DNA of 60,213 bases, filler included. It is 8 parts of 8 records of this genome, joined end to end, with 100 filler letters (N's around TTAATTAATTAA, not from the genome) between each part and the next. Parts side by side here need not be neighbours in the genome. Positions count along the whole stretch, not along the records: positions 1 to 7,572 come from DRR723986_26407; 7 more parts are not named here. One strand, 5' to 3'. This document shows, piece after piece, positions 1-52,029 of this stretch. The position numbers and the translations under genes are program-made. Under the pieces are notes generated by a model. The model was not told the origin of the DNA and ran no database searches. It saw only the letters and a program-made list of their open reading frames with translations. How positions within the stretch are numbered: position 1 is the first letter of the stretch; the number at the start of each line of letters is the position of its first letter.

Positions 1-32
1 AAGCGGTCCGCCCCTTACCTTGAACGTTAGAC
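1..32 (+). repeat. attC site, 3' part (truncated by contig start)
   Basis: Core GTTAGAC at 26-32 is the reverse complement of GTCTAAC at 824-830. Confidence 0.8.
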
Positions 33-67
33 CTCCAATTCGCCCATCTGCGTAAGCGGCCAAATTT

Positions 68-808
68 ATGACCATTCCAAAGGTTTTCGTTTCGTACTCA
101 CACGACTCCCAAGCGCACAAGAAGTGGGTTTTAGAACTGGCGACCCGATTGCGAAAGGTTGGCGTTGACGCCGCGCTCGATCAATGGGATCTAGGGCCGG
201 GAGATGACATACCGCTCTTCATGGAGCGGAATTTAGCGAGTGCCGATCGCGTCATCATGGTTTGTACGGAGAAGTATGTTGAAAAGGCCAATGCCGGAAC
301 GGGAGGCGTCGGATACGAGAAGATGATCGTTACCGCTGACCTGATGAAGAAGGTCGATTCCAACAAAGTGATTCCAATTGTCCGCCAGGAAGGAACCCAC
401 CTAGTTCCCATGTTCTTGAAGTCGAAGCTGTATTTGGATTTCTCGCGAGAGGATCAGTTTGAGGAGTCGTTTGACGATCTGACGCGCTCCATTCATAACG
501 CCCCGTTGTTCGTGAAGCCGGAGATTTCAACAAGTCCGTTCGAACCAGTCGCAGGAGCCGCCAAACGTAGCGGAGATGCCTTGCTAGAACTAATGTCCCT
601 TCTCATGGCCGCCTTTGAGATGAAGCGTGATGGCGGCTACATACCCTACAAATACGTTGCAGAGCGTTGGCCTGGCTCGCGGGCGATGCTGGATATTCTT
701 CTAGAGCAAGCCAAATCCGACGGTCTCATTACGGCAATAACGCCTGCGTATATCGACATTACATTGAAGGGCAAGATGTATGCGGTTGAGAACAAGCTTG
801 TCGAGTAA
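68..808 (+). CDS. SEFIR/TIR-domain protein with a probable C-terminal winged helix (cassette 1)
   Basis: KVFVSYSHDS..HKKWVLELATRLR..GVD..LDQWDL..GGVGYE is a TIR/SEFIR signature. Confidence 0.85.
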   Translation: MTIPKVFVSYSHDSQAHKKWVLELATRLRKVGVDAALDQWDLGPGDDIPLFMERNLASADRVIMVCTEKYVEKANAGTGGVGYEKMIVTADLMKKVDSNKVIPIVRQEGTHLVPMFLKSKLYLDFSREDQFEESFDDLTRSIHNAPLFVKPEISTSPFEPVAGAAKRSGDALLELMSLLMAAFEMKRDGGYIPYKYVAERWPGSRAMLDILLEQAKSDGLITAITPAYIDITLKGKMYAVENKLVE

Positions 809-823
809 CTTACTCACGCGTTT

Positions 824-892
824 GTCTAACCCGGCAGTCAACCGGACGCTGCGCAATAAGGCTGCGCAGCGCCGATTACTTCTACGTTATGT
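824..892 (+). repeat. attC site
   Basis: GTCTAAC...GTTATGT, 69 bp, internal hairpin GCTGCGCA..TGCGCAGC. Confidence 0.92.
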
Positions 893-1094
893 GATTTCTC
901 AGAATTGCAGTTTCATTAGAATTTGGTTATAAGTTGCCTAGGTTGACTATAAGGTTTTGTGGCTATTAGCCACTACATGGACCGCCAAGGTTTGCTACTT
1001 CCAAATAGGGCGGTATAACGCAAAAAGTAGCAAAAGTCTGGACGACCCTTGCCTTGGTATGTAAAGACTTGGGTCAGTTATTTACGGAGTAGCT

Positions 1095-1226
1095 ATGGCG
1101 AAAAAGTGGGTAACAGGTTCAGCAGGTCTGTCTGTGAAATACAGGGACTTTGAGTTAAAGCTCTCTCTGACCCTGGGGCTATCAGTGGTAGCCTTTTTGT
1201 ACTTGTTGCAATTATTTTTGATGTAG
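1095..1226 (+). CDS. 43-aa small membrane peptide (cassette 2), candidate type I toxin
   Basis: GGAG at 1086-1089, ATG at 1095, MAKKWVTGSAGLSVKYRDFELKLSLTLGLSVVAFLYLLQLFLM, tandem TAG TAG; too short for the ORF track. Confidence 0.7.
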   Translation: MAKKWVTGSAGLSVKYRDFELKLSLTLGLSVVAFLYLLQLFLM

Positions 1227-1280
1227 TAGTCAGATCTAGTGGCGTATTCAGTTCGGCTGGCGCCACGCCCTCTTTAAATC

Positions 1281-1340
1281 ACATAACAATTCGTTCAAGC
1301 CGACGGAGCTATGCGCCGCTGCTTAACTCAGACGTTAGGC
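1281..1340 (+). repeat. attC site
   Basis: ACATAAC...GTTAGGC, 60 bp; similar to the attC at 5028-5087. Confidence 0.92.
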
Positions 1341-1374
1341 CTCATAGCTCGGCAGGCACATCCGAAGACGTTCC

Positions 1375-2184
1375 ATGACAGCTCAAGCTTTCGTAGACGA
1401 TAGCGGCGGGAAAGGCCAAAGCAGGAACTTTGTGCTGGCCGGCTTAGTTTCAGACTCAGAGCGATGGGCGGCCTTCTCTCGAGAATGGCAAAGCTGCCTA
1501 GATCAATATCCGCGAATCGCCGTCTTCAAGATGCGAGAAGCTGCCTCTCGCACTGGAGCTTTTCGTCGGTTTACTGAAGAACAAAGAGATAGCCGCCTGC
1601 GATCACTAGCGCAAGTCATCAATCGATACGCTGAGTTCGCCATCTGGACGGCTATCGACCTTGAAGCACACGCGCAAACGTGGGCCAAGCTGGAAAAGCC
1701 GAAGTCAGAAGTCTATTTCTGGCCGTTCCACACATTGATTCTCGGCACCTGCTTTGATCTGTGGGAAGAATGTAAGTGGAGAGAGCCCTTCGAGATCATC
1801 TTCGATGAACAACTTATCTTTGGCGAGCGAGCACGCAAGTGGTATCCACTTATGCGAGAGATCGTCCGGATTAAGTATCCCGAGGAATTCGCAATCCTTC
1901 CAGCGGAGCCGATGTTCCGAAAAGACGATGAGCATCTGCCGATCCAGGCGGCCGATTTGTGGGCATGGTGTCTTCGCAAGAATTCGGACGACCCTACAGC
2001 GGGGTCATTTGAGTGGTTACTGGAAGAGATGCAAAACGTCAGTCAGTCGCACTACTGCAACTACTATGACCTGGAGCGAATGAAGAGCGTGAGCGAAGAG
2101 TCATTTCGCATAGCTAAAGCGGGGGAGATTCCCCCAGAACTTTTGCCGCTCTATCAGTCGATCGCTCGTCAAAAGAGAGGCTAG
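1375..2184 (+). CDS. DUF3800-like (RNase H-fold) protein (cassette 3)
   Basis: N-terminal AFVDDSG, FVLAG, central IIFDEQ and C-terminal IQAADL motifs. Confidence 0.75.
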   Translation: MTAQAFVDDSGGKGQSRNFVLAGLVSDSERWAAFSREWQSCLDQYPRIAVFKMREAASRTGAFRRFTEEQRDSRLRSLAQVINRYAEFAIWTAIDLEAHAQTWAKLEKPKSEVYFWPFHTLILGTCFDLWEECKWREPFEIIFDEQLIFGERARKWYPLMREIVRIKYPEEFAILPAEPMFRKDDEHLPIQAADLWAWCLRKNSDDPTAGSFEWLLEEMQNVSQSHYCNYYDLERMKSVSEESFRIAKAGEIPPELLPLYQSIARQKRG

Positions 2185-2194
2185 TGACGATGAG

Positions 2195-2263
2195 GCCTAA
2201 CCCTTCCATCGAGAGGACATGCCCCGGCAAGCCGGGTCATGCCTCTCATGTCAAACGTTGGGC
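2195..2263 (+). repeat. attC site
   Basis: GCCTAAC...GTTGGGC, 69 bp; nearly identical to 2718-2786. Confidence 0.93.
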
Positions 2264-2281
2264 ATCACTAAGGAGACGCAT

Positions 2282-2716
2282 ATGAAGCGCGTAGAACTCG
2301 AAGACTTGTCGCGATCGCATGGCTCGGCAAAGGTCGCCGTGAATCACGCAATCCAATGGCTCTCTGCCTTACTTTCGAAATCAAGCTTTAGTGTCAAAGC
2401 AGGCGGGCTCGCATACCGAACGATGCGCCGCGATCTTCCGTATGTGATCCACGACACGAGCCTTCCCGGCACACAAATCTTGGTCAATCGGCACTACAAG
2501 CCTGTTGGTAGCAACGTTCCGGCATCTGGCCCTAATGCTATCTACGAAGAGTTCACGAACCTACACGTTCAGTTGGGTCCAGAACAGATCCTTGCAGTCG
2601 TTAGTCCGCCCCATGAGCGCGGATTGTTTGGCGATGGCAATGCACCGTGGCACTCAAAATCAAATGCCAAGGCCTACTTAGAGCGGCTCAAGAAGCTCGA
2701 GGCCTTGTTGCAGTGA
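2282..2716 (+). CDS. Hypothetical protein (cassette 4); start moved to ATG 2282
   Basis: AAGGAG precedes ATG 2282; the track start at 2219 lies inside the attC. Confidence 0.75.
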   Translation: MKRVELEDLSRSHGSAKVAVNHAIQWLSALLSKSSFSVKAGGLAYRTMRRDLPYVIHDTSLPGTQILVNRHYKPVGSNVPASGPNAIYEEFTNLHVQLGPEQILAVVSPPHERGLFGDGNAPWHSKSNAKAYLERLKKLEALLQ

Positions 2717-2717
2717 T

Positions 2718-2786
2718 GCCCAACCCTTCCATCGAGAGGACTCGCCCCGGCAAGCCGGGTCGAGCCTCTCATGTCAAACGTTATGC
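2718..2786 (+). repeat. attC site
   Basis: GCCCAAC...GTTATGC, 69 bp. Confidence 0.93.
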
Positions 2787-2800
2787 GCCACGGGGGAGAG

Positions 2801-4420
2801 ATGCCAGACCGGAAACCGTATAGATACCTAAACACTCTACTTGCAAAGGCCGAATACAGGGATAGCGATTTCAGAGATTTTCTGAGCGCAGACGCACGAG
2901 TCACTCAGTTGGAGGTTCTTGAGCAGCATGACTTCGACGGTGTTCTGTACATAAAAAACTCCCAAGAAAAGCGACCGCGTTGGGCGTTGCTAGTAGATGC
3001 AATCGTCGGTAGGAAAGTAGACCAGCTTTCAAATAAATCGAGCTCCGCAGTACTGCTTCTTCGCGTTGATGGCAAGGTACTGGCGTTTACCTTTGGCTAT
3101 GGCCGGTTTCTACTTAACACAGGGTGTTTCGAGCAAGAATTCGGACTAAAAACGGCGCTGAATACACTTAATCATCAGAGCTTACGCAGCGTTGATCTTC
3201 ACACGCTCGAAGATCAGCCAATTCAAAAGAAATCTCAAGCTACCCGTGGCTCGGAAGCCAGTGTATTTGGCGTTGACATATTCCGGGATGTGCTTCGCGC
3301 AGTTACTGGTTCACCAAGAACGGGAGTGGGATACAAGAACATTTCTGGGGGCGACGCGATCTACTCCTTTGGTCTAGAAATGTTGGTGGAGGAACTTCCG
3401 AAAATCGCCTCCGATATTCTCGGCTATTATGAACTCGAGCTTTATAAAGATTCGTTTGGCTGGGTGGACAACATTAGGCGTGTGAAAGACGCAGCATCGA
3501 TTTCAGCTTTGGATGACTCATTACTTGAAGCAGTTAAGGTTCGGGATGCCGCAATCGTTGTCACATTGCCTGAGATTATTGAGTGGGACTCGGTGCTTGG
3601 TTTCAGTTTCACTCGTTCCAAGCGTGAGTTATCACCGACAATCGATACTGGCAAGTATCTTGAGAATGTTGATTCAGACTCTGTGTCTATCGAGTCCCTT
3701 CGTCGAGACCGTCTTTATATCACAGACATACACGATAACGAGTTCGGCCACTCGATCTACAACTGTCTGTACTTTGAGTTAGAAGGTGACGATACCAAAA
3801 ATGTGATTTTTGGCGGAAATTGGTACGAGATCGACAAGTCTTTTATGCGTGGCATTGATTCTATCTTGGCCTTAATTGATCTGAGTGATATCGCATTTCC
3901 CACTGTCGAAACCTGGGTGGAAGACGATAAGCATAAGATCGAATCAGAGGGTGACTACAATGCGCGGGTAGCCGATCACTTAGGTTGCCACTTGTTGGAT
4001 AAGAAGCTTGTGAAATGCTCAAAGACTACGTCGCCTATCGAACTGTGCGATCTTCTGACGATTGAGAAGCAGCTGATCCACGTCAAGCACCGAAAAGGCG
4101 GCTCTGCCGGTCTAAGCCATCTTTTTGCACAAGGCAGCGTATCGGCAGAGGTTATGCTTGGCGACAGAGTATTTAGAAAGGAAGCGAGAAAGGTCTTGCG
4201 CCGCGTTGATCCTGATGCGTGTGAGCTTGTTCCAATCGACGGATTGACAAGCGCCGACTATGAAGTCGTATTTTTGATCCTTGGTGACGCAAATGCCAGC
4301 GTCAAAGGGAATCTTCCTTTTTTCAGCAAAGTAAATTTGACACGTGTATACGAAAATCTTTCGCAAAGGGGCTATTCGGTCAAGATTGCAGGAGCCGAAA
4401 AGGTTGCGCGTGGCGTATAA
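2801..4420 (+). CDS. TIGR04141/DUF6119-like sporadically distributed protein with a possible C-terminal nuclease motif (cassette 5)
   Basis: FTFGYGR..FGLKTALN..GNWYEID..SEGDYN..IELCDLLT..LIHVK..LSHLFAQG..LPFFSKVNL motifs; GGGGAG before ATG 2801. Confidence 0.75.
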   Translation: MPDRKPYRYLNTLLAKAEYRDSDFRDFLSADARVTQLEVLEQHDFDGVLYIKNSQEKRPRWALLVDAIVGRKVDQLSNKSSSAVLLLRVDGKVLAFTFGYGRFLLNTGCFEQEFGLKTALNTLNHQSLRSVDLHTLEDQPIQKKSQATRGSEASVFGVDIFRDVLRAVTGSPRTGVGYKNISGGDAIYSFGLEMLVEELPKIASDILGYYELELYKDSFGWVDNIRRVKDAASISALDDSLLEAVKVRDAAIVVTLPEIIEWDSVLGFSFTRSKRELSPTIDTGKYLENVDSDSVSIESLRRDRLYITDIHDNEFGHSIYNCLYFELEGDDTKNVIFGGNWYEIDKSFMRGIDSILALIDLSDIAFPTVETWVEDDKHKIESEGDYNARVADHLGCHLLDKKLVKCSKTTSPIELCDLLTIEKQLIHVKHRKGGSAGLSHLFAQGSVSAEVMLGDRVFRKEARKVLRRVDPDACELVPIDGLTSADYEVVFLILGDANASVKGNLPFFSKVNLTRVYENLSQRGYSVKIAGAEKVARGV

Positions 4421-4513
4421 CAACATGTTGCAGGTGACGTTGGACCCTTTGGCCACTTTTGCCAACGCAAAAGCGGCCGTCGCCTCAAACGCACCTGAAC
4501 ATGGGCGTTATGT
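4415..4513 (+). repeat. attC site
   Basis: GTATAAC...GTTATGT, 99 bp; CATGTTGCAGGTG pairs with CACCTGAACATG. Confidence 0.88.
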
Positions 4514-4545
4514 AGTTTCGAGTTCAACGCATTTGGAGGAAACTA

Positions 4546-5022
4546 ATGGCACGCAAACCTAAGGTTCTCGGCCTTGATGGGAAGTACCACCCTGCTGACT
4601 GGTTCTTAGGGCAAGATGGCAAATACCACGCGCCCGGTTCATTCTTAGGTCTTGATGGGCAGTATCATCCGAAAGGCCATCAACTCGGCCTTGATGGGAA
4701 GTATCACAAGCCAGGATCTACTCTCGGGCTTGACGGCAAATACCACGATAAAGGGACCACCCTAGGGCTTAACGGCCAATACCACAAACAGGGTGAGGTG
4801 CTAGGCTTAGATGGGAAGTATCACCCTAAAGACCATGTCCTAGGCCTTGACGGACAATATCATCCAAGGAGCAGCACACTCGGAATGGATGGCAAGTACC
4901 ATCCTCCCGGTTATTTCTTAGGTGTGGATGGCAAGTATCACCCTCCAGGTTACTTCTTAGGTGTGGACGGCAAGTATCACCCTCCGGGATCTATCCTCGG
5001 AGTGGACGGCAAATATCATTGA
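4546..5022 (+). CDS. 13-aa tandem-repeat protein, 12 LGx(D/N)GxYH motifs (cassette 6)
   Basis: GGAGG RBS; 7 aa + 11 x 13 aa + 8 aa = 158 aa. Confidence 0.88.
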   Translation: MARKPKVLGLDGKYHPADWFLGQDGKYHAPGSFLGLDGQYHPKGHQLGLDGKYHKPGSTLGLDGKYHDKGTTLGLNGQYHKQGEVLGLDGKYHPKDHVLGLDGQYHPRSSTLGMDGKYHPPGYFLGVDGKYHPPGYFLGVDGKYHPPGSILGVDGKYH

Positions 5023-5027
5023 GAGCC

Positions 5028-5087
5028 ACATAACAATTCGTTCAAGCAGACGCCGCTTCGCGGCGCGACTTAACTCAGCCGTTAGAC
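5028..5087 (+). repeat. attC site
   Basis: ACATAAC...GTTAGAC, 60 bp. Confidence 0.92.
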
Positions 5088-5090
5088 CTG

Positions 5091-5423
5091 ATGATCTTCG
5101 CCGTGTCTACCGACGATCGCTCGTTAATGACCTTCGCAACCGAGGCTGACGCAGTCGGGTACTGCGAGGGCCTGGATGTGGAGGCCGCAATTTGGCTGTT
5201 CTGGGACAACCGCGGTGAACCGCTGGAGCCGCACTTCTCGGTCCCGAACAAGCGGGGATTCTTTGGCGTGGTGAATGGGGTCTACTCTCTTGTGCCTGCG
5301 GGCCCCGACCACCACGCGGTGCTAGACGAAGCACTCGAAGAGGTTCTCGCGTTCGAAGGCTCCGCCCCATTCAATTCCGCCGAGGGCATTCGGTCTTACC
5401 TCAGAGGGCAACGCGTTGAGTAA
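5091..5423 (+). CDS. Hypothetical protein (cassette 7)
   Basis: 110-aa ORF starting 4 nt after the core site and filling the cassette. Confidence 0.7.
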   Translation: MIFAVSTDDRSLMTFATEADAVGYCEGLDVEAAIWLFWDNRGEPLEPHFSVPNKRGFFGVVNGVYSLVPAGPDHHAVLDEALEEVLAFEGSAPFNSAEGIRSYLRGQRVE

Positions 5424-5479
5424 GGCATGGTGCGCGCTGAGCGGGCTCCTGTTGGTCGCCGGTCACCTCTACGTTAGAC
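5424..5479 (+). repeat. Degenerate attC (3' half only)
   Basis: GCCGGTCACCTCTACGTTAGAC resembles the 3' ends of attC 824-892 and 6344-6430; no inverse core upstream. Confidence 0.65.
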
Positions 5480-5482
5480 AGC

Positions 5483-5821
5483 ATGGAAATCACTGACCTA
5501 TCTGCCATCGAGCAAGACTCATTGTTGCGCACCCTGAATTATTGTGTTGCCCAGTGGGATTTGGAATCTCCAACGCTATTTAGTCTTGAACAAAGTGATT
5601 TTCAAGCACTAATTAGCACGTGGCCACAATGCATCGCTCTCCAAGAAAAAACCGCTGCATTGGCAGTCGTCGGTGGGCTTCGGGAAATACTGTATGGCTC
5701 TGCGGTAAAGAGCGAGGCAGTAGCCAAGTTAATCGGCATTAGTCACTCCGAGGCATGCGTACTGCTCGATCGTTTGTTGCCACGAATTGATCGCGCTTTG
5801 GGCCAAGACAATGCTGTCTAA
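5483..5821 (+). CDS. Hypothetical protein (cassette 8)
   Basis: 112-aa ORF with its stop inside the inverse core GTCTAAC. Confidence 0.75.
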   Translation: MEITDLSAIEQDSLLRTLNYCVAQWDLESPTLFSLEQSDFQALISTWPQCIALQEKTAALAVVGGLREILYGSAVKSEAVAKLIGISHSEACVLLDRLLPRIDRALGQDNAV

Positions 5822-5906
5822 CATTACGGTCAAAGCCGTTCCGGCCTGCAGCCTCCACTTGACGCTGCACGATAAAGCGAAGCTCCCTTTACCTACAACG
5901 TTAGAA
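5816..5906 (+). repeat. attC site
   Basis: GTCTAAC...GTTAGAA, 91 bp. Confidence 0.82.
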
Positions 5907-5908
5907 CT

Positions 5909-6343
5909 ATGACTGATCGCGAACTCACACACTTTTACGGCATAACCGCCATTGTCATTACAGTGGCTATAGCACTCTTCCAATCCCAGCGAGTACGCTC
6001 GTGGTTTTTCATCACATTCAACTCGTGGCGCTCAACCAAGAAGGAAAAATTCAATGCCCGTATCCAAGCGCGCATTGACCTTATCTCCGAGCTAGCGGCT
6101 TCGCCCGCAAAAGCCCAAGCCTATTTCTTCGCGAAGGCATTCATGCTCCTTTTGTTTTTCCTTGTCGTTTTCTTTCTTTCAGTAATGCTGCTTCTTCGTG
6201 CAGAAATCATTGTCAGCACAATCGGTTTTTTTGGTTTTTGGGCTTGGCTTCTCGTTTCAGCGGGTGAACCGTTCGACGTGGCAGTGAGGTTACGTAACCC
6301 CGAGAAGGCGCTTGCGTGGCTTGAAAGCCAAAAGAAGCCATAG
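5909..6343 (+). CDS. Hypothetical membrane protein, about 3 TM helices (cassette 9)
   Basis: 144 aa with three hydrophobic stretches. Confidence 0.75.
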   Translation: MTDRELTHFYGITAIVITVAIALFQSQRVRSWFFITFNSWRSTKKEKFNARIQARIDLISELAASPAKAQAYFFAKAFMLLLFFLVVFFLSVMLLLRAEIIVSTIGFFGFWAWLLVSAGEPFDVAVRLRNPEKALAWLESQKKP

Positions 6344-6430
6344 TTCTAACATGGCGCTCAACCTCGCTCCCTCCGGTCGCTGGACGCTGCGCGATAAAGC
6401 CGCGCAGCGCCGGTTAGCTCTACGTTAGTT
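6344..6430 (+). repeat. attC site
   Basis: TTCTAAC...GTTAGTT, 87 bp. Confidence 0.9.
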
Positions 6431-6437
6431 TGCTTTG

Positions 6438-6809
6438 ATGGACTCTCGTATCTTGCACATTGCGATGGGGCGTGCCCTTAAGACGGTGGCATGGGACAAC
6501 TCTGGCCAAAGCGAGTACACGCTGGTCGGCGACGGCTTATCGATTGATGTGGGCCAGTTGCAGTTTTTGATCAACGAGAGGTTCGAAGCACAGGTGCTTT
6601 GGCTATCCACTAGTAAGCATGAAGCCTGTTCTTTCCTACGTGAAACGGCAGCGAAGAGACTTGCAGCTATTGTCTCGGCGGGCCGTGCAGTGACCATCTG
6701 CGACGAGAAAATCAATAGGTTCCTTCAGATCAATCCCATTGGCGTCGCCCGTACTGGTACGGCGCAAGCTAACTATTCATTCAAGCCGACGCCTTCGGCG
6801 CGGTCTTAA
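6438..6809 (+). CDS. Hypothetical protein reading into its own attC (cassette 10)
   Basis: ATG at 6438; stop at 6807-6809 lies inside attC 6767-6823. Confidence 0.65.
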   Translation: MDSRILHIAMGRALKTVAWDNSGQSEYTLVGDGLSIDVGQLQFLINERFEAQVLWLSTSKHEACSFLRETAAKRLAAIVSAGRAVTICDEKINRFLQINPIGVARTGTAQANYSFKPTPSARS

Positions 6810-6823
6810 TTCAAACGTTAGGG
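6767..6823 (+). repeat. attC site
   Basis: AGCTAAC...GTTAGGG, 57 bp, CGCC-TTC-GGCG apex. Confidence 0.88.
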
Positions 6824-6829
6824 CTATAA

Positions 6830-7480
6830 ATGACTTCCACTGACGAGCTAGTCGCCCAGATCGAGCGTGTCCTCGCCAAGTTTCCGAAGGTTGCGGATTC
6901 TTGGAGGACAGACAGAACCCTTGCTGGGTTCACGGACACGGTTGCTTTTTCAGCACTTCGCACCGAGTGCATTGCCCTGGGATCATTTATCTACGGAGCT
7001 CGCCATCCGCAGGCCCGCATGATCGCCAATACCATTTCGCACGAGACGCTACACCATCTGCAGAGCACGGAAGGAATCCTGCGAGGCACCATCGAAGCTA
7101 TCAGGCATGGCCTACTGTCAGAGTTGCGAACCCAGGTTTTGCTAGATATCAAAGCAGACTTCATAGAAGCAGGATCCAATGCGCTGCAGAGTGGCGCACT
7201 CGAAGTAGCAGCGGTTCTGGCGGCTGTGGTGCTTGAAGACTCCACAAAGAGGCTTGCTGAAAAGCAGGAGCTGAGCAGCGCGCTCAATCAAGAATTCAGC
7301 GTCGTGGTCGTGGAGCTATTCAAGTCGGGTGCAATTACGAAAGGAACGAAGGGTGTACTCCTAGGCTTCAAGGACCTAAGAAACGCCGCCCTGCACGCGC
7401 AGTGGAAAGAAGTCTCACCAGAAGCTGTTCGAGGTCTACTGCAGTTTCTGCCCATGTTTATGGAGCAACACGGTGTATAG
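6830..7480 (+). CDS. HEPN/DUF4145-like protein (cassette 11)
   Basis: AAVLAAVVLE helix and an R-x4-H motif (RNAALH) near the C-terminus. Confidence 0.72.
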   Translation: MTSTDELVAQIERVLAKFPKVADSWRTDRTLAGFTDTVAFSALRTECIALGSFIYGARHPQARMIANTISHETLHHLQSTEGILRGTIEAIRHGLLSELRTQVLLDIKADFIEAGSNALQSGALEVAAVLAAVVLEDSTKRLAEKQELSSALNQEFSVVVVELFKSGAITKGTKGVLLGFKDLRNAALHAQWKEVSPEAVRGLLQFLPMFMEQHGV

Positions 7481-7549
7481 CCCTAACAACAGGCTGCAGT
7501 GGGACGTCCTCGCCTTCGGCGAGGCCGCCCCTGAGCCTGGGCGTTAGGC
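7481..7549 (+). repeat. attC site
   Basis: CCCTAAC...GTTAGGC, 69 bp; the next cassette ORF starts at 7560 and is cut by the contig end. Confidence 0.92.
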
Positions 7550-7572
7550 ATCGCAAAGTATGAAGCTCGGTG

Positions 7573-7672
7573 NNNNNNNNNNNNNNNNNNNNNNNNNNNN
7601 NNNNNNNNNNNNNNNNTTAATTAATTAANNNNNNNNNNNNNNNNNNNNNNNNNNNNNNNNNNNNNNNNNNNN
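7573..7672. other. Artificial contig linker (N-run/TTAATTAATTAA/N-run); identical linkers at 13851-13950, 22574-22673, 28094-28193, 39180-39279, 45888-45987 and 51625-51724
   Basis: Identical 100-nt spacer with a six-frame stop 12-mer; composition and gene content change abruptly across each one. Confidence 0.99.
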
Positions 7673-13850: not shown

Positions 13851-13950
13851 NNNNNNNNNNNNNNNNNNNNNNNNNNNNNNNNNNNNNNNNNNNNTTAATT
13901 AATTAANNNNNNNNNNNNNNNNNNNNNNNNNNNNNNNNNNNNNNNNNNNN

Positions 13951-22447: not shown

Positions 22448-23519
22448 TAATAAGCTTCGTTGATTTCATGATACAATTCCTCCACAAAGAAATTTGTTTT
22501 GTTCCAGCCCAACTTGATAATCGGATATTCGATTTCATCTGCTCCTAAAATCAAATTAACATCCATGGATGTTNNNNNNNNNNNNNNNNNNNNNNNNNNN
22601 NNNNNNNNNNNNNNNNNTTAATTAATTAANNNNNNNNNNNNNNNNNNNNNNNNNNNNNNNNNNNNNNNNNNNNGCGGAACTTTGCAAACTCCGCTTTCTG
22701 CGCCTTGCTGCCGTAAGTGCAGTAGCAGCATCAGATTGGGCAGCCGGAAACCGCTGAACGTCTGCTTTCGGGAAACTGACCTTCAACTCTCGCGAATGCA
22801 GCATTGTGCGCGGAGCACGCTGTGTCAGAGTCCGCTTTGAGCTGACACAGGTCACCCAGCGCAGCTACCCAAGCTGGCGACGGCGTGATCTGGGTGAAAA
22901 TCACACGCTGCATCGCTGCAAGGAGCCCGCAGGAGACGAACAGATTCCTCGCGGCATGCGCTCGCAGCACGGACTATGCTGAAACCGCTAAGAATTCGGT
23001 GTCGCCTTGCGGCCTGAAGACCGGCCATTCACACAAAGCGCAGCGAGGAATAACTGTTCAAGGATCAAGTCGCGGGGCAAAATGAGATTTCGCTGCACCT
23101 GTGTCAAAGGCCGGTTTGCGTTATTTTCGACCGCAGTAAGAAACAACAAACGCAAGAAGCAGAAGTTGCCAAATGAGCGTATAATCAAGCAACAATGGAG
23201 CTAGCTGAACTTCAGTCGACAAAGTGGTTGGATTTTACCCTGCACTGTCGAAAGTCAGGTCTGAGCCCACACTAAACCTGCCGATATTTTGCGGCGCCTG
23301 CTCGCGGCATAAAAACTCGTTTGTGTGTGCGATGTCCATAGCTAATCTGCGGCTGTTTGAACTGCCCATAATGTTAGGCGCAGCTTAGTTATGGTCGCAA
23401 TTAATCACTTCGCAGGATGCTTGGGCTTGATCCTAAGCTGTTTCAGCGAACTGACCAGACAAACCAACACGTGCGCCTAACCTAGAAGGCTGAACATCCT
23501 CCGTTTCATAACCCGCAAA

Positions 23520-27783: not shown

Positions 27784-28193
27784 TCGCGCAATACGCGTTC
27801 TAGCGAGAATTTCAACCTTATGCCGGTCAAATGTCGGACCGGAAGAAGGACCAGTTTCATACGTCTCAATGTTAACGGTTCAGAATTTGAAGAGTAATAC
27901 CTTTGGCAATATGAAACCCTTCTTATGGTCTTGCGAGAACAGTTGGCTTTTGTCGGCCCAAATCCCTTAGTTCATGCAATCGCATTGGTGGGATACGACT
28001 GGGCGCGGATAGCATTGCACGAATAAACGACCAGACATTCGACGGTGCATGTTGAGTGTCTGGTTCGTCCGCGGAGCGGTCACAAGCCAAGACNNNNNNN
28101 NNNNNNNNNNNNNNNNNNNNNNNNNNNNNNNNNNNNNTTAATTAATTAANNNNNNNNNNNNNNNNNNNNNNNNNNNNNNNNNNNNNNNNNNNN

Positions 28194-28610
28194 GTTCGGC
28201 CTGTCACCAGGCTCGAAGCTCCCTACGCCGGACATGTTGAACGAAGTCGCCCTAAGGCTACTCCAAACCCCATGTGCAGGATTACTTCGCTTCAGACCAC
28301 GAAGCGCCCTCACCTGCTTTGGATAAAACGGCCTCAAAAGAAACTCCACCTCTTCGGTGAGCTCCTAACGAGGTTTTTCCGCATCGCCCCCGCCCTGGTT
28401 TTTCACTTCCACCTTTCGGACTTCTAACCTCTTCAAGCATCGGATCGAATCGTCGGATTCCTCGAACTCCCAATTACCGACAAACAAAGTCGGTAGTTGG
28501 AGCGGTTCGCATTACTCGACGAAGCCTCCGTCGAACCGGACAAGCACCTCTCGATGCATCCGGCTCTACGGGTCAGTCACGTGGCGGGAGTTACTTCCGC
28601 CCCCTTAGCC
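28194..28610 (-). ncRNA. Group II intron-like RNA with apparent order D3-D5-D6-exon-D1 (candidate circularly permuted group II ribozyme), cut by the contig end
   Basis: Minus strand 28566-28533 reads GAGCCGGATGCATCGAGAGGTGCTTGTCCGGTTC (34-nt domain V); a D6 hairpin ends TTCGATCCGAT at 28439; a 5'-end-like GGGCGACTTCGTTC starts at 28252. Confidence 0.65.
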
Positions 28611-29099: not shown

Positions 29100-30389
29100 T
29101 TAAAGGTCGAACTTGAGAACGTCCCCGATACTTTCAAGCTTCTTACGGCGCTCTTCAACGTCTTTCTCTGGACGTGCGGTAGAACCGAATAATTCTGTTC
29201 TTAGCTTTGCCATCATCTGTTTGCTTTCACGGCTTAGCTCCCGAGGTTTTTCCTCTTCACGTTTAAGCTTCTGCCACCATTCAGGCGTGCCTCGAGTGCC
29301 TTTGTGGGCCTTATCAATTGAGTCGACTAGGAATGCCATTGGGCTCGCACTGAAGAACTTCTTACCGAATCGCTCCTGGGCCGCTTGAGTGATATCGCAC
29401 CATTCGCTGAGAAGGCGGGAAGGGAAGCGACGGATGAGGCGAATAGCAGGATCGTCCTCAAACCCAATGTTGCGAAGCGTTTCTAGGAGAGGGGAGTTGT
29501 AGGCGTCTGCTTGGTAGCTTCGCCTCTTTACTTCCTTGAAGTAGAGCCCTTGAGACATTTTGACGAAGTAGTTTCCTGGCTTGGTTCGAAAGACCTCGCC
29601 GTCACTGATAACGTGCATTTCTTCTAGCTTCTTGATGCAGCGGCTTACCTTGGCTTTCATCTCGGCAGTGGAGAGCGAATCGCTAAACCCTAGAAGGTCT
29701 ACGGCAACGTGCTCAAGCTTCAGGGCCTTGAGTTGTTTGCGGCGAGAGAGCACCTTGCTTGCGAACAGGAATAAACGCCTACTAGCGTTGTCTAGCTCGC
29801 GGTATACGGCGAGATCGAAGCGAAATTGGCCCGCAGCATGCTTTACCATTTCGAAGAACAGAGGGTCCCACACGATTCGCCAGGCACGAGACGACTTGGG
29901 GTCTTCAGGGAGGCTATAGCTGAAAAAGCCAAAGCTTACTCTACGGTGTTCTGAACGCACCGGGTCATAGAACCCGTCGTTCATGTAGGTCACTGCTGAT
30001 AGTCGTTTGAGGGCATCAGCAAACTGTTTGTATTGGCGTCCACCTCGTTTGTTTGTTTGGTTGATAACTCCAAGTTGGCGGAGTATCCAATGCGGCGTAG
30101 CGACGAGCTCAGGCTCTGCATCGGCCGGTAGTAGGCTTAAGGCTAGCAGGCCCCAAAGGTAAAGCTCATCGGCGGCAGAAAGTCCAAGTGGAGAGAACAC
30201 TCGAGCTTGGGCGTAAGACCTGGTTCCGTGCTCATTGGGAAAGGAATACTTCGTTGCATAGACGAGGTTATCCACGAGAGATGCTCTGGGGTTCAGGGGG
30301 CAGAGTGCATGCTCCACAAGCGAGAGCTGGCCGAGTCCGGTTACTCGGTTGGGTTCCGACGTTTCTACTGGCTTTCTCTTGGCTGACAT
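29100..30389 (-). CDS. Putative plasmid/ICE replication initiator protein
   Basis: 429 aa next to iterons and parAB; Rep-like segments (DELYLWGLL, YRELDNASRRLFLF); family by context and resemblance only. Confidence 0.6.
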   Translation of the reverse strand: MSAKRKPVETSEPNRVTGLGQLSLVEHALCPLNPRASLVDNLVYATKYSFPNEHGTRSYAQARVFSPLGLSAADELYLWGLLALSLLPADAEPELVATPHWILRQLGVINQTNKRGGRQYKQFADALKRLSAVTYMNDGFYDPVRSEHRRVSFGFFSYSLPEDPKSSRAWRIVWDPLFFEMVKHAAGQFRFDLAVYRELDNASRRLFLFASKVLSRRKQLKALKLEHVAVDLLGFSDSLSTAEMKAKVSRCIKKLEEMHVISDGEVFRTKPGNYFVKMSQGLYFKEVKRRSYQADAYNSPLLETLRNIGFEDDPAIRLIRRFPSRLLSEWCDITQAAQERFGKKFFSASPMAFLVDSIDKAHKGTRGTPEWWQKLKREEEKPRELSRESKQMMAKLRTELFGSTARPEKDVEERRKKLESIGDVLKFDL

Positions 30390-39151: not shown

Positions 39152-39584
39152 CTACAACGAGTATCGGCCACACGGCTCCNNNNNNNNNNNNNNNNNNNNN
39201 NNNNNNNNNNNNNNNNNNNNNNNTTAATTAATTAANNNNNNNNNNNNNNNNNNNNNNNNNNNNNNNNNNNNNNNNNNNNGATGCGACACAAGCCATTTAA
39301 TTTCAGCGGCAATTGCATGTAGTGACGTCATCTGGTATTGGGCTTTAACGGTGTACACAAACTCACTCTAAGGCGAATGCCGATTGTATTAATGGGCATT
39401 TCAGAAACTGATCTGCTCCTTATACAATTGCGTCATCACCGGCCCGCACCCCATTCCACACCCAGGATGTCGGTTTTGTTCAATTTTTGACGATCTTCTA
39501 TGCTTATCTTGCAACATATTCGATTCGACATCTACGTCACGGCCAAATCAACACATTGTTTAACCAACAAACAGGAACCTCAGC

Positions 39585-45431: not shown

Positions 45432-46056
45432 GAGTTTAACGGCCTTCGCAGTGCACAGCCAAACAGATGTTAAATGTTTTTGGGCTTGAGGCTTGATTGC
45501 TGCGCCCCCTCGGTTTCACCGTTTGGTGGCTGGCTTTTTTATCCTCTTGTTAGTCGCTGAGTCTTCAGCTTTCAGCTTGCCGGCTGGAATGCTCGCATGA
45601 TGTGATTGAGTCTCATGACTTGCGGCTTATGGCAATGCGGTCAATAAACGTTGTCCAGGTCTTTGTTTTCGTCCAGGCTCAAGATTTTGTCGCTGGGCGG
45701 CGCTTGTTCGTGGCTGAATCTCGGGTAACATATGGTTCAGAAGTCTGACTTTGTGTAATTCTGATAGTTCCAAGGCAAATCGACGAAGCGGGCAGGATTT
45801 GAGGCTAAGCGTGCAGAGATATAGGATTTGAGATGATGATTGAGAGTTGAAGTATTTCAGGCACCCGGGTCGAGCCCTTAGGGCTCGNNNNNNNNNNNNN
45901 NNNNNNNNNNNNNNNNNNNNNNNNNNNNNNNTTAATTAATTAANNNNNNNNNNNNNNNNNNNNNNNNNNNNNNNNNNNNNNNNNNNNGCTCTATCCAGTT
46001 GAGCTAAGGGACCGCTGTTCCTGCTTTTGCAGATTTTCCGGGGGCGGCGCAAGCGG

Positions 46057-51594: not shown

Positions 51595-52029
51595 GTCCTT
51601 CAGTCGGCCGAACATGATCTCGATNNNNNNNNNNNNNNNNNNNNNNNNNNNNNNNNNNNNNNNNNNNNTTAATTAATTAANNNNNNNNNNNNNNNNNNNN
51701 NNNNNNNNNNNNNNNNNNNNNNNNCGCCCATGAATGCAATGAATACAGCGGCAATTCGCGTCGAGTGAAGATTGGATTGGCTAGAGAGTAAGTCGCGATA
51801 AAGCTGAAATACTGACCGTTTGGATACGAATTCCGGCACTTTGGCGTGAATGCGGTGGGAAATACAAAAAAGGCGACCTAAACTTGTGATGAAATTGCGC
51901 GAGTATGCAGCGCTTCATTCCGTGAGCTTCAATCGCGCAAAACATCTGCTGATTAGTAACAGGGCGAGTGTTGTGGAATTAGCTGCAATACAAGAATGCC
52001 GCCTGGTGCCGCCGGACAACAAAACACAA

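What the first reader, a model, noticed from the sequence alone, without database searches (positions are those of the whole stretch)
886..1340. Seemingly empty integron cassette encodes a 43-aa membrane peptide behind a switchable leader (type I toxin-like)
Seen: no ORF of 60 aa or more, but GGAG and ATG 1095 give a 43-aa peptide with a basic N-terminus and a hydrophobic C-terminal helix. Unlike its neighbours it has about 200 nt of leader with promoter-like boxes (TTGCAG-N17-TATAAG at 905-933; TTGCTA-N16-TATAAC at 992-1019). TTTGCTACTT (991-1000) can pair with AAGTAGCAAA (1025-1034). Alternatively GCTACTTCC (994-1002) can pair with the RBS GGAGTAGC (1086-1093) with one bulge. GCCACTA (969-975) can pair long-range with TAGTGGC (1237-1243), competing with a 3' hairpin (1239-1266). 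Established: RBS sequestration and 5'-3' fold-back are hallmarks of Hok-like type I toxin mRNAs, while known cassette TA systems are mostly type II. Inference: a self-promoted type I TA or abortive-infection cassette. No antisense promoter could be identified.
Basis: partly seen in the sequence, partly recalled or inferred. Interest (0 to 1): 0.8.

Follow-up and report, generated by a model that had tools for sequence, protein, structure and literature searches.

The report
Integron cassette making a small RNA
A mobile integron cassette with no normal-sized gene turns up as a discrete, folded RNA of about 240 bases in soil RNA libraries; that RNA carries a possible 43-residue membrane peptide, but nothing shows a toxin-antitoxin pair.

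Summary
The cassette is real (887-1334; aadA-type attC 1281-1340). It is the only one of 11 in this 7.5-kb array without a cassette-filling ORF: its leader is 208 nt against 8-41 nt, and its ORF share is 0.29 against 0.79-0.95.

GGAG plus an ATG ORF of at least 43 aa occurs in 1.25% of shuffles, and the perfect 10-bp hairpin in 1.4%. The promoter-like boxes are at chance level. The two proposed "switch" pairings have predicted probabilities of 0.005 or less and about 0.

New evidence: parts of the cassette occur in 12 public runs from 9 studies. RNA-library contigs from two studies cover only 990-1229 and 993-1176, with no differences. DNA contigs run across those ends, and one shows a different downstream cassette. 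The + strand of 990-1229 folds well (z -2.15).

The peptide and the DNA have no relatives anywhere searched. I found no antitoxin RNA and no known toxin or RNA family.

Best reading: a self-expressed small-peptide mRNA. A non-coding sRNA is the main rival. A type I toxin-antitoxin pair is unsupported.

The parts
886..892 (+). R' core (GTTATGT) of the upstream attC. This is the left junction of the cassette; the cassette starts at T887.
   Evidence: A 12-nt perfect complement of 886-897 lies at 1276-1287, as expected for the two halves of one cassette's attC.
887..1334 (+). The whole cassette, 448 nt. GC of the body (893-1281) is 0.43, against 0.47-0.60 for the ORFs of the other cassettes.
893..989 (+). 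AT-rich upstream part (GC 0.41 over 893-1020) with weak promoter-like boxes: 905-933, 943-969 (TTGACT-N15-TATTAG, predicted start about 976) and others. Not covered by the RNA-library contigs.
   Evidence: at chance level; none passes the scan
959..973 (+). Small hairpin GUGGCU-AUU-AGCCAC (-8.4 kcal/mol).
990..1229 (+). Core found as contigs in RNA libraries: X3 990-1229, X7 993-1176, 0 differences. A structured RNA; strand not shown, + favoured.
   Evidence: MFE -73.0, z -2.15, 3 of 200 shuffles as good, centroid -71.9.: - strand -51.7, z -1.68; the only one of 31 windows without an attC at z <= -2.15.
991..1034 (+). Terminal stem-loop with a perfect 10-bp stem (-14.0 kcal/mol) at the left end of the RNA-covered core.
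   Evidence: Pair probability 0.8-0.97 in 4 of 5 contexts and 0.24 in one. The natural variant C998T in run X2 keeps the pair as U-G on the + strand only (plus reading).
1086..1229 (+). GGAG (1086-1089), 5-nt spacer, ATG 1095, 43-aa ORF, TAG 1224-1226 and a second TAG 1227-1229. The peptide has a basic N-terminus and a hydrophobic C-terminal helix.
   Evidence: AF2 single-sequence model: helix 9-42, mean pLDDT 81.3.
1175..1205 (+). Terminator-like hairpin (-9.9 kcal/mol) plus a U-run inside the ORF. It codes part of the hydrophobic tail. X7's RNA contig ends at 1176.
1019..1053 (-). Terminator-like hairpin on the opposite strand (10 pairs, -13.4 kcal/mol, tail ACUUUUUGCG). It is the only feature that could end an antisense RNA.
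   Evidence: The only upstream promoter-like site is weak: 1238-1211, 8 of 12 matches, at chance level.
1239..1266 (+). GC-rich 3' hairpin (-14.4 kcal/mol, pair probability 0.94-0.99) with no U-run behind it. It lies outside the RNA-covered core.
1281..1340 (+). The cassette's attC: R'' ACATAAC 1281-1287 and R' GTTAGGC 1334-1340. It is of the type seen in class 1 integrons.
   Evidence: 86% identity over query 399-455 (window 1284-1340) in the listed plasmid hits; 4774 plasmid records match and none covers 80% or more of the query., X2 record 3: a contig with the same attC type behind a different gene end; the DNA fold alone is not distinctive (z 0.35).

Best explanation
Cassette 887-1334 is a genuine, mobile integron cassette. 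Its product is a discrete structured RNA of about 240 nt (about 990-1229, probably the + strand), not a cassette-filling protein gene.

The RNA starts with a stable terminal stem-loop (991-1034). It carries a good ribosome-binding site (GGAG, 5 nt, ATG) and a 43-codon ORF closed by two stop codons. The ORF encodes a one-helix peptide anchored in the membrane by its C-terminus.

My committed reading is a self-expressed small-membrane-peptide mRNA. The 5' hairpin stabilises it, and folding that keeps the Shine-Dalgarno sequence mostly paired damps its translation. The peptide acts at the inner membrane. Whether it is toxic or defensive is open.

Shown: the cassette borders, the anatomy, presence in RNA libraries limited to 990-1229, occurrence in two array contexts, and the lack of relatives.

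Inferred: the strand, the promoter, translation and the peptide's action.
For: 1. Borders and mobility. The 5' GTTATGTGATTT (886-897) is the exact complement of 1276-1287. The attC is 86% identical to the class 1 type in the listed plasmid hits. Run X2 holds the same array (contigs 1177-1406 and 1535-1700). In run X4 the cassette is followed, after 1337, by different sequence.

2. Oddness in the array. Leader 208 nt against 8-41 nt; ORF share 0.29 against 0.79-0.95 in the other 10 cassettes.

3. RNA.
- 12 of 17 listed runs (9 studies) hold part of the stretch, and 3 of them are RNA libraries.
- Of the 4 runs laid, the RNA contigs cover 990-1229 (X3, depth 32.6) and 993-1176 (X7), with 0 differences and no loose ends.
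- Nothing in those RNA runs covers 893-989 or 1230-1340 of the same cassette.
- DNA contigs cross both ends (X2 934-1123 and 1177-1406; X4 1232-1337).

4. Structure.
- The + strand of 990-1229 has MFE -73.0, z -2.15, and a centroid close to the MFE. The - strand has -51.7 and z -1.68 with a diffuse centroid.
- Among 31 adjacent 240-nt windows of the contig, 4 have z <= -2.15. The other 3 contain attC sites.
- Variant C998T keeps the hairpin pair only on the + strand.

5. Coding signals.
- SD plus an ATG ORF of at least 43 aa occurs in 1.25% of shuffles.
- Tandem stop codons, and the X3 RNA contig ends exactly after them.
- The C-terminal 19 residues have hydropathy 2.18.
- AF2 gives helix 9-42 with pLDDT above 90 in the C-terminal half.
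- SD bases 1087-1089 are unpaired with probability of only 0.06-0.19 in 4 of the 5 contexts computed, though the partners change. In the RNA-supported 990-1229 context, 1089 is 0.94 unpaired while 1086-1088 stay at 0.07-0.09.
Against: - No homologue of the peptide, so conservation or translation cannot be tested. One search found only itself. One search found itself plus one spurious tandem-repeat protein (P0002). Searches gave 0 confirmed out of 589 and 600 pattern matches.
- An ATG ORF of this length alone occurs in 14% of shuffles.
- The hydrophobic tail is coded by a T-rich, terminator-like stretch (1175-1205), so it could be a by-product of an sRNA terminator. X7's contig ends at 1176.
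- Contigs cannot show strand, true ends or expression level, and DNA can be present in RNA libraries (notes).
- No promoter is above chance.
- The fold z-score is modest.
- The ESM Atlas gave no hit of 0.9 or more.
Confidence: 0.42

Rival explanations
1. Non-coding sRNA cassette. The ~210-240-nt RNA is a regulatory RNA in its own right, like sRNA-Xcc1 in kind. It ends at the hairpin plus U-run at 1176-1200 or shortly after. The 43-aa ORF is accidental.
For: - A discrete RNA-library contig and a well-defined + strand fold.
- A terminator-like site at 1175-1195 inside the ORF, with X7's contig ending at 1176.
- An orphan ORF with no conservation.
- Cassette-borne sRNAs are known: sRNA-Xcc1, as cited in the review PMC8876359 (passages) and in PMC12444791 (passages).
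Against: - SD plus ATG with ideal spacing and tandem stops occurs in 1.25% of shuffles.
- X3's contig runs 30 nt past the terminator-like site, to the end of the ORF.
- No Rfam family matches. The gathering search and the E <= 10 search on 800-1420 gave only two chance-level hits, neither of them sRNA-Xcc1.
Confidence: 0.23
2. True type I toxin-antitoxin cassette. The + strand mRNA encodes a membrane-damaging peptide. A cis-antisense RNA, starting around 1204 and ending at the - strand terminator-like hairpin 1053-1029, blocks its translation.
For: - A small peptide with a hydrophobic helix.
- A long structured leader with a mostly paired SD.
- A - strand terminator-like hairpin of -13.4 kcal/mol with a U-run, antisense to the leader and SD.
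- A weak - strand promoter-like site at 1238-1211.
- A defence-type neighbour: bSEFIR, E 1.4e-78.
- A type I-related cassette (symE + sRNA-Xcc1) exists in Xanthomonas integrons (PMC12444791).
Against: - The antisense promoter has 8 of 12 matches, and 73% of shuffles have as many such sites.
- The RNA contigs reach 990-993, about 30 nt beyond the antisense terminator.
- There is no match to any toxin family in Pfam or PADLOC or to antitoxin RNAs in Rfam.
- Toxicity is untested.
Confidence: 0.1
3. Promoter cassette. This would be a gene-less cassette whose role is to drive transcription of the downstream cassettes, as in Vibrio and Treponema arrays. The RNA seen would be the start of that transcript.
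For: - The cassette fits the published working definition: no annotated gene and no ORF longer than 210 bp (PMC11014356, Discussion passage).
- It has an AT-rich upstream part with several weak promoter-like boxes on the sense strand.
- That paper reports that such promoters cannot be found in silico (section heading seen in the outline).
Against: - The RNA-library contigs stop at 1229 and 1176. They do not run on into the cassette's own 3' part or attC (1230-1340), which DNA contigs do cover.
- Promoter-like sites are at chance level.
Confidence: 0.1
4. No function. This would be a decayed or junk cassette, with the RNA-library contigs coming from contaminating DNA or from a nuclease-resistant piece of array read-through.
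For: - An orphan sequence with low GC (0.43).
- No relatives in any collection.
- The tool notes that RNA libraries can hold DNA.
Against: - No remnant of a known family in any of the six stop-to-stop frames of 40 aa or more that I scanned, out of 13 of at least 25 aa listed.
- The cassette is kept at 99-100% identity in runs of several studies and habitats, and in two array contexts.
- The RNA contigs of two studies share the left end (990 and 993), and depth is 32.6 in X3 with none on the flanks.
Confidence: 0.15

Closest known systems
Gene-less (ORF-less) integron cassettes with promoter activity: Vibrionaceae superintegrons (Blanco et al. 2024, PMC11014356; abstract and passages read) and Treponema oral-metagenome cassettes (Tansirichaiya et al. 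2019, PMC6557892; search listing only)
   Same: A cassette with a normal attC and no ORF above 210 bp, of similar size (448 nt here; 491-666 bp in that paper), transcribed on its own. The authors themselves state that small ORFs and small RNAs were not excluded.
   Different: Here the RNA evidence points to a discrete RNA that ends before the attC, not to read-through into the next cassette. The cassette also carries a well-formed SD and small ORF. No promoter activity was measured here.
sRNA-Xcc1 (Rfam RF02221) and the symE + sRNA-Xcc1 cassette of Xanthomonas integrons (Chen et al. 2011, not held, known only through citations; PMC12444791, passages read)
   Same: An RNA product encoded by a horizontally moving integron cassette. 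That cassette is linked to a type I-type toxin gene (symE).
   Different: There is no sequence or structure match to RF02221 or to any Rfam family. There is no symE; Pfam finds nothing in the cassette. Here the orientation is sense to the array, while the Xanthomonas cassette is reported as reversed.
Type I toxin-antitoxin systems (Hok/Sok, TisB/IstR, Ibs/Sib, ShoB/OhsC, SymE/SymR). Their features are recalled from general knowledge, not taken from a call.
   Same: A peptide shorter than 60 aa with one hydrophobic helix, a long structured 5' leader, and a predicted occluded ribosome-binding site.
   Different: No antitoxin RNA identified, no family match, the proposed fold-back is not predicted, and toxicity is untested.
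Type II toxin-antitoxin cassettes of chromosomal integrons (phd-doc, ccd; Guerout et al. 2013, seen only as a reference in PMC8876359)
   Same: Cassettes that carry their own expression signals.
   Different: Those have two protein genes of known families. Here there is one orphan 43-aa ORF.

Membership tests
Integron gene cassette | Bounded by attC recombination sites: R' GTTRRRY at both junctions, with the cassette's first bases complementary to the R'' of its own attC | tested here: met
   GTTATGT 886-892 and GTTAGGC 1334-1340. The 12-nt stretch 886-897 is the perfect complement of 1276-1287. The attC is 86% identical to the class 1 integron attC type in the listed plasmid hits. It sits in a row of 11 cassettes. 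The DNA fold of the attC alone is not distinctive. No integrase lies on this 7.5-kb contig.
Gene-less / ORF-less cassette (definition of Blanco et al. 2024) | No annotated gene and no ORF longer than 210 bp | tested here: met
   The longest ORFs are 57 aa (174 bp with its stop, - strand) and 43 aa. The definition was read in PMC11014356.
Promoter cassette | Measured promoter activity that raises expression of the downstream cassette | not testable with these tools
   In silico sites are at chance level. The RNA-library contigs do not extend past 1229, which speaks against this but does not decide it.
Type I toxin-antitoxin | Small hydrophobic toxin peptide | tested here: inconclusive
   A 43-aa ORF with a hydrophobic C-terminal helix. 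Translation and toxicity were not tested.
Type I toxin-antitoxin | Antisense or partly complementary RNA antitoxin with its own promoter and terminator | tested here: not met
   There is a terminator-like site on the - strand (1053-1029), but no promoter above chance. There is no Rfam antitoxin family. The contigs give no strand.
Type I toxin-antitoxin | Membership of a known toxin family (Hok, Ldr, Ibs, TisB, ShoB, Fst, SymE and others) | tested here: not met
   Pfam found 0 families at E <= 1 for the frame that holds the ORF. PADLOC found 0. No homologues.
Hok-like mRNA | 5'-3' fold-back, and SD sequestration by a defined upstream box | tested here: not met
No covariation test was possible because no relatives were found.
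sRNA-Xcc1 (RF02221) | Match to the Rfam covariance model | tested here: not met
   No hit at the gathering threshold or at E <= 10 on 800-1420.

The most novel reading that the evidence does not exclude
A type I toxin-antitoxin or a single-peptide abortive-infection module travels as a self-expressed integron cassette. It has an attC of the type that class 1 integrons use. It is spread at near-identity through soil, groundwater and freshwater arrays and is transcribed in situ. That would make small membrane-toxin RNAs part of the integron cassette pool, next to protein defence cassettes such as the neighbouring bSEFIR.
Probability: 0.1. Interest if true: 0.7.

Novelty: new member of a known kind. 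Interest (0 to 1): 0.42.

Why it matters
A sizeable share of integron cassettes carry no recognisable gene, and so far they have been read mainly as promoters. Here public RNA libraries give a first hint that one such cassette makes its own discrete, structured RNA with a well-signalled small ORF. It also moves between arrays and occurs in several habitats. If the peptide or the RNA is functional, "empty" cassettes deserve screening for small proteins and sRNAs. The attC is of the type found in class 1 integrons on plasmids, so cassettes from this pool could in principle be picked up by those integrons (inference).

Tried and rejected
- Relatives of the peptide. Word-indexed search: only itself. 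Full HMMER search of 1.84 billion representatives: itself plus P0002, a 1195-aa tandem-repeat translation matched in 14 weak stretches, which I judge spurious. ESM Atlas: best score 0.84, below the level that counts.
- Related loci, using the 53-aa stop-to-stop frame 1065-1223. 0 confirmed of 589 pattern matches in metagenome contigs and 0 of 600 in genome contigs.
- A 20-nt word from the leader found 0 matches in metagenome contigs.
- blastn of the cassette body. 2 of 5 genomes at E <= 1 (20-31 nt). 5 of 401 genomes of one order at E <= 0.01, all 27-38 nt in the T-rich part, which is chance level. Nothing beyond those in 104 loci, and tblastn gave a best E of 1.4. In plasmids the 20 listed of 4774 matching records hit the attC only, and none covers 80% or more of the query. 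In phages both matching records hit the attC only.
- The - strand 57-aa ORF has no homologue.
- Six stop-to-stop frames against Pfam gave nothing better than E 0.2.
- Rfam gave only two chance-level hits: RF01721 at E 0.19 over the upstream attC, and RF02114 at E 3.2.
- The whole-cassette fold is not distinctive: z -1.38 (+) and -1.35 (-).
- Host taxon. The window is 8 unrelated contigs joined by N spacers, with GC from 0.37 to 0.61, so the other contigs say nothing about the host. No whole genome is held. A second attC type of the array (2203-2265, 2717-2780) occurs in 97 stretches. The 80 listed are mostly Burkholderiales isolates and MAGs, with some Gammaproteobacteria. That is a hint to the cassette pool, not to the host.
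- Covariation could not be tested because there are no diverged relatives.
- Earlier scan notes by place and by sequence returned nothing.
- The paper on sRNA-Xcc1 (Chen 2011) is not held.
- Literature search for a type I system in an integron cassette (14 papers, 10 listed by title and abstract start) showed none that describes one.
- Supplements of the papers were not consulted.

Full report
WHAT THE WINDOW IS. The 60-kb window is eight unrelated contigs joined by N spacers, with GC ranging from 0.37 to 0.61. Only 1-7572 belongs with the finding. That contig is one uninterrupted integron cassette array. Twelve GTT junctions define 11 cassettes (sequence). No integrase lies on the contig, and no whole genome is held.

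Neighbouring cassettes:
- a bSEFIR/TIR defence protein at 68-808 (PADLOC E 1.4e-78)
- a DUF3800 protein at 1375-2184
- a DUF6119 protein in the ORF 2771-4420
- seven ORFs without a family

THE OBSERVATION.

The cassette runs from T887 to G1334. Its first 12 bases, counted from G886, are the exact complement of 1276-1287. That is the signature of a cassette's own attC. The attC 1281-1340 is 86% identical to the attC type of class 1 integrons in the listed hits. 4774 plasmid records match, none covers 80% or more of the query, and the 20 listed match the attC only. Both phage records found also match the attC only.

The cassette stands out from its neighbours. Its leader is 208 nt against 8-41 nt, and its ORF fills 0.29 of the cassette against 0.79-0.95 in the other 10. 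Its body GC is 0.43 against 0.47-0.60.

Tests against chance:
- An ATG ORF of at least 43 aa occurs in 14.1% of 2000 shuffles. With a Shine-Dalgarno motif in front it occurs in only 1.25%.
- A perfect inverted repeat of at least 10 bp occurs in 1.4% of 500 shuffles.
- The promoter-like boxes are not special. The tool's scan finds 0 in the whole contig. Under my relaxed rule, 31% of 1000 shuffles have as many sites.

THE "SWITCH". In the predicted ensembles of five transcript versions:
- The 991-1000/1025-1034 hairpin is strong: 0.8-0.97 in four versions and 0.24 in one.
- The 3' hairpin 1239-1266 has probability 0.94-0.99.
- The long-range pairing 969-975/1237-1243 is about 0. It is outcompeted by the local hairpins 959-973 and 1239-1266.
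- SD bases 1087-1089 are mostly paired (unpaired probability 0.06-0.19) in four of the five versions, but with different partners depending on the assumed ends. In the 990-1229 version, 1089 is 0.94 unpaired while 1086-1088 stay paired (0.07-0.09 unpaired). So no specific switch is supported.

NEW EVIDENCE: PUBLIC RUNS. Of 17 runs listed, 12 (from 9 studies) hold part of 886-1340. They come from freshwater sediment, soil, groundwater and aquatic samples. Three of the 12 are RNA libraries. I laid four runs on 600-1700.

- RNA libraries. The contigs from two different studies cover only 990-1229 (X3, 240 nt, depth 32.6) and 993-1176 (X7, 184 nt). They have no differences and no loose ends. Nothing in those runs covers 893-989 or 1230-1340 of the same cassette.
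- DNA runs. Their contigs cross both ends: X2 at 934-1123 and 1177-1406, X4 at 1232-1337.
- Array context. X2 continues into the same downstream cassette (to 1406, then 1535-1700), so it holds the same array. In X4 the sequence after 1337 is different, so there the cassette sits in another context. This is direct evidence that it moves as a unit.
- Limits. The tool rates coincident contig ends in the RNA libraries of two studies as a weak hint of an RNA end. Contigs cannot give strand, exact ends or expression level.

WHICH STRAND.
- The + strand of 990-1229 folds to -73.0 kcal/mol (z -2.15; 3 of 200 shuffles as good), and its centroid is almost identical to the MFE structure.
- The - strand gives -51.7 kcal/mol (z -1.68) with a diffuse centroid.
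- Among 31 adjacent 240-nt windows of the contig (+ strand, 40 shuffles each), 4 reach z <= -2.15. The other three contain attC sites.
- The only natural variant seen inside the cassette body, C998T in X2, turns a C-G pair of the 5' hairpin into U-G on the + strand and into A-C on the - strand (plus reading).
- The left contig ends (990, 993) sit at the foot of that hairpin.

I take the + strand as more likely, roughly 2 to 1.

CODING OR NOT. In favour of a real small gene:
- GGAG, 5 nt, then ATG.
- Two tandem TAG stops, at which X3's contig ends.
- A C-terminal segment with hydropathy 2.18.
- A confident single helix, residues 9-42, in a single-sequence AF2 model (mean pLDDT 81.3).

Against it:
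- The peptide has no relative in any collection (Atlas).
- The hydrophobic tail is coded by a T-rich, terminator-like stretch at 1175-1205 (-9.9 kcal/mol).
- X7's contig ends at 1176.

Because no diverged copy was found (as well), neither covariation nor codon-level selection could be tested.

TYPE I TOXIN-ANTITOXIN? The only antisense feature is a terminator-like hairpin on the - strand at 1053-1029 (-13.4 kcal/mol, followed by a U-run). The best upstream promoter-like site (1238-1211) matches 8 of 12 positions, and 73% of shuffles have as many such sites. The RNA-library contigs run about 30 nt beyond that terminator. Rfam, Pfam and PADLOC give nothing. The label is therefore not supported, but it is not excluded either.

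LITERATURE.
- Gene-less cassettes are known as promoter carriers. Blanco et al. 2024 (PMC11014356; abstract and passages) define them by the absence of ORFs longer than 210 bp. They state that small ORFs and small RNAs were not ruled out.
- A review (PMC8876359; passages) cites ORF-less cassettes that encode regulatory RNA (sRNA-Xcc1).
- In Xanthomonas the most widespread cassette carries symE plus sRNA-Xcc1 (PMC12444791; passages). RF02221 is in Rfam (PMC3531072; passage).
- A search for type I systems in integron cassettes listed no paper that describes one (titles and abstract starts only).
- Phage-defence cassettes in integrons are in print (listing only).

VERDICT. This is a genuine, mobile, unusual cassette that most likely makes its own ~240-nt structured RNA.
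- Small membrane-peptide mRNA (my reading): 0.42
- Non-coding sRNA: 0.23
- Junk or artefact: 0.15
- Strict type I toxin-antitoxin: 0.10
- Promoter cassette: 0.10

It is a new member of known kinds (self-expressed, gene-less or sRNA-type cassettes). It is of moderate interest, mainly because of the in-situ RNA hint and its spread across habitats.

Noticed in passing
window 7573-7672, 13851-13950, 22574-22673, 28094-28193, 39180-39279, 45888-45987, 51625-51724: The window is eight contigs joined by N spacers around a TTAATTAATTAA linker (linker read at the first joint only), with GC from 0.37 to 0.61. The other contigs are probably from other organisms and say nothing about the integron's host.
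   Followed up: partly
window 68-808: The cassette just upstream encodes a bSEFIR/TIR protein (PADLOC PDLC03957, E 1.4e-78; Pfam TIR_2 and SEFIR), a single-gene anti-phage system carried as an integron cassette.
   Followed up: partly
window 2203-2263 and 2717-2786: Two cassettes share a nearly identical attC whose two arms differ by paired 2-nt changes. The same attC type occurs in 97 stretches of genome contigs. The 80 listed are mostly Burkholiales-type lineages (Rhizobacter, Ideonella, Acidovorax, Rhodoferax, Polaromonas) plus some Methylococcaceae and Competibacteraceae. The array mixes at least three attC types.
   Followed up: partly
window 1281-1340, 5028-5088 and 6770-6823: Three cassettes of this environmental array carry attC sites that by eye are of one type. 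For 1281-1340 the match to the class 1 integron attC type on plasmids was measured (86% identity in the listed hits). In run X2 a 17-kb contig has that attC type behind a different gene end.
   Followed up: partly
window 4546-5022: A cassette ORF of 158 aa made of about 11 tandem copies of a roughly 14-residue unit (LGLDGKYH-like). No Pfam family.
   Followed up: no
window 28444-28568 (- strand): Rfam group II intron domain (RF00029, 41.9 bits) on another contig of the window, next to a 429-aa ORF at 29100-30389.
   Followed up: no
window 1029-1053 and 991-1034, - strand: On the - strand, the terminator-like hairpin (1053-1029) and the 10-bp hairpin (1034-991) share bases 1029-1034 and so exclude each other. 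This would be an attenuator-like arrangement if a - strand RNA exists.
   Followed up: no
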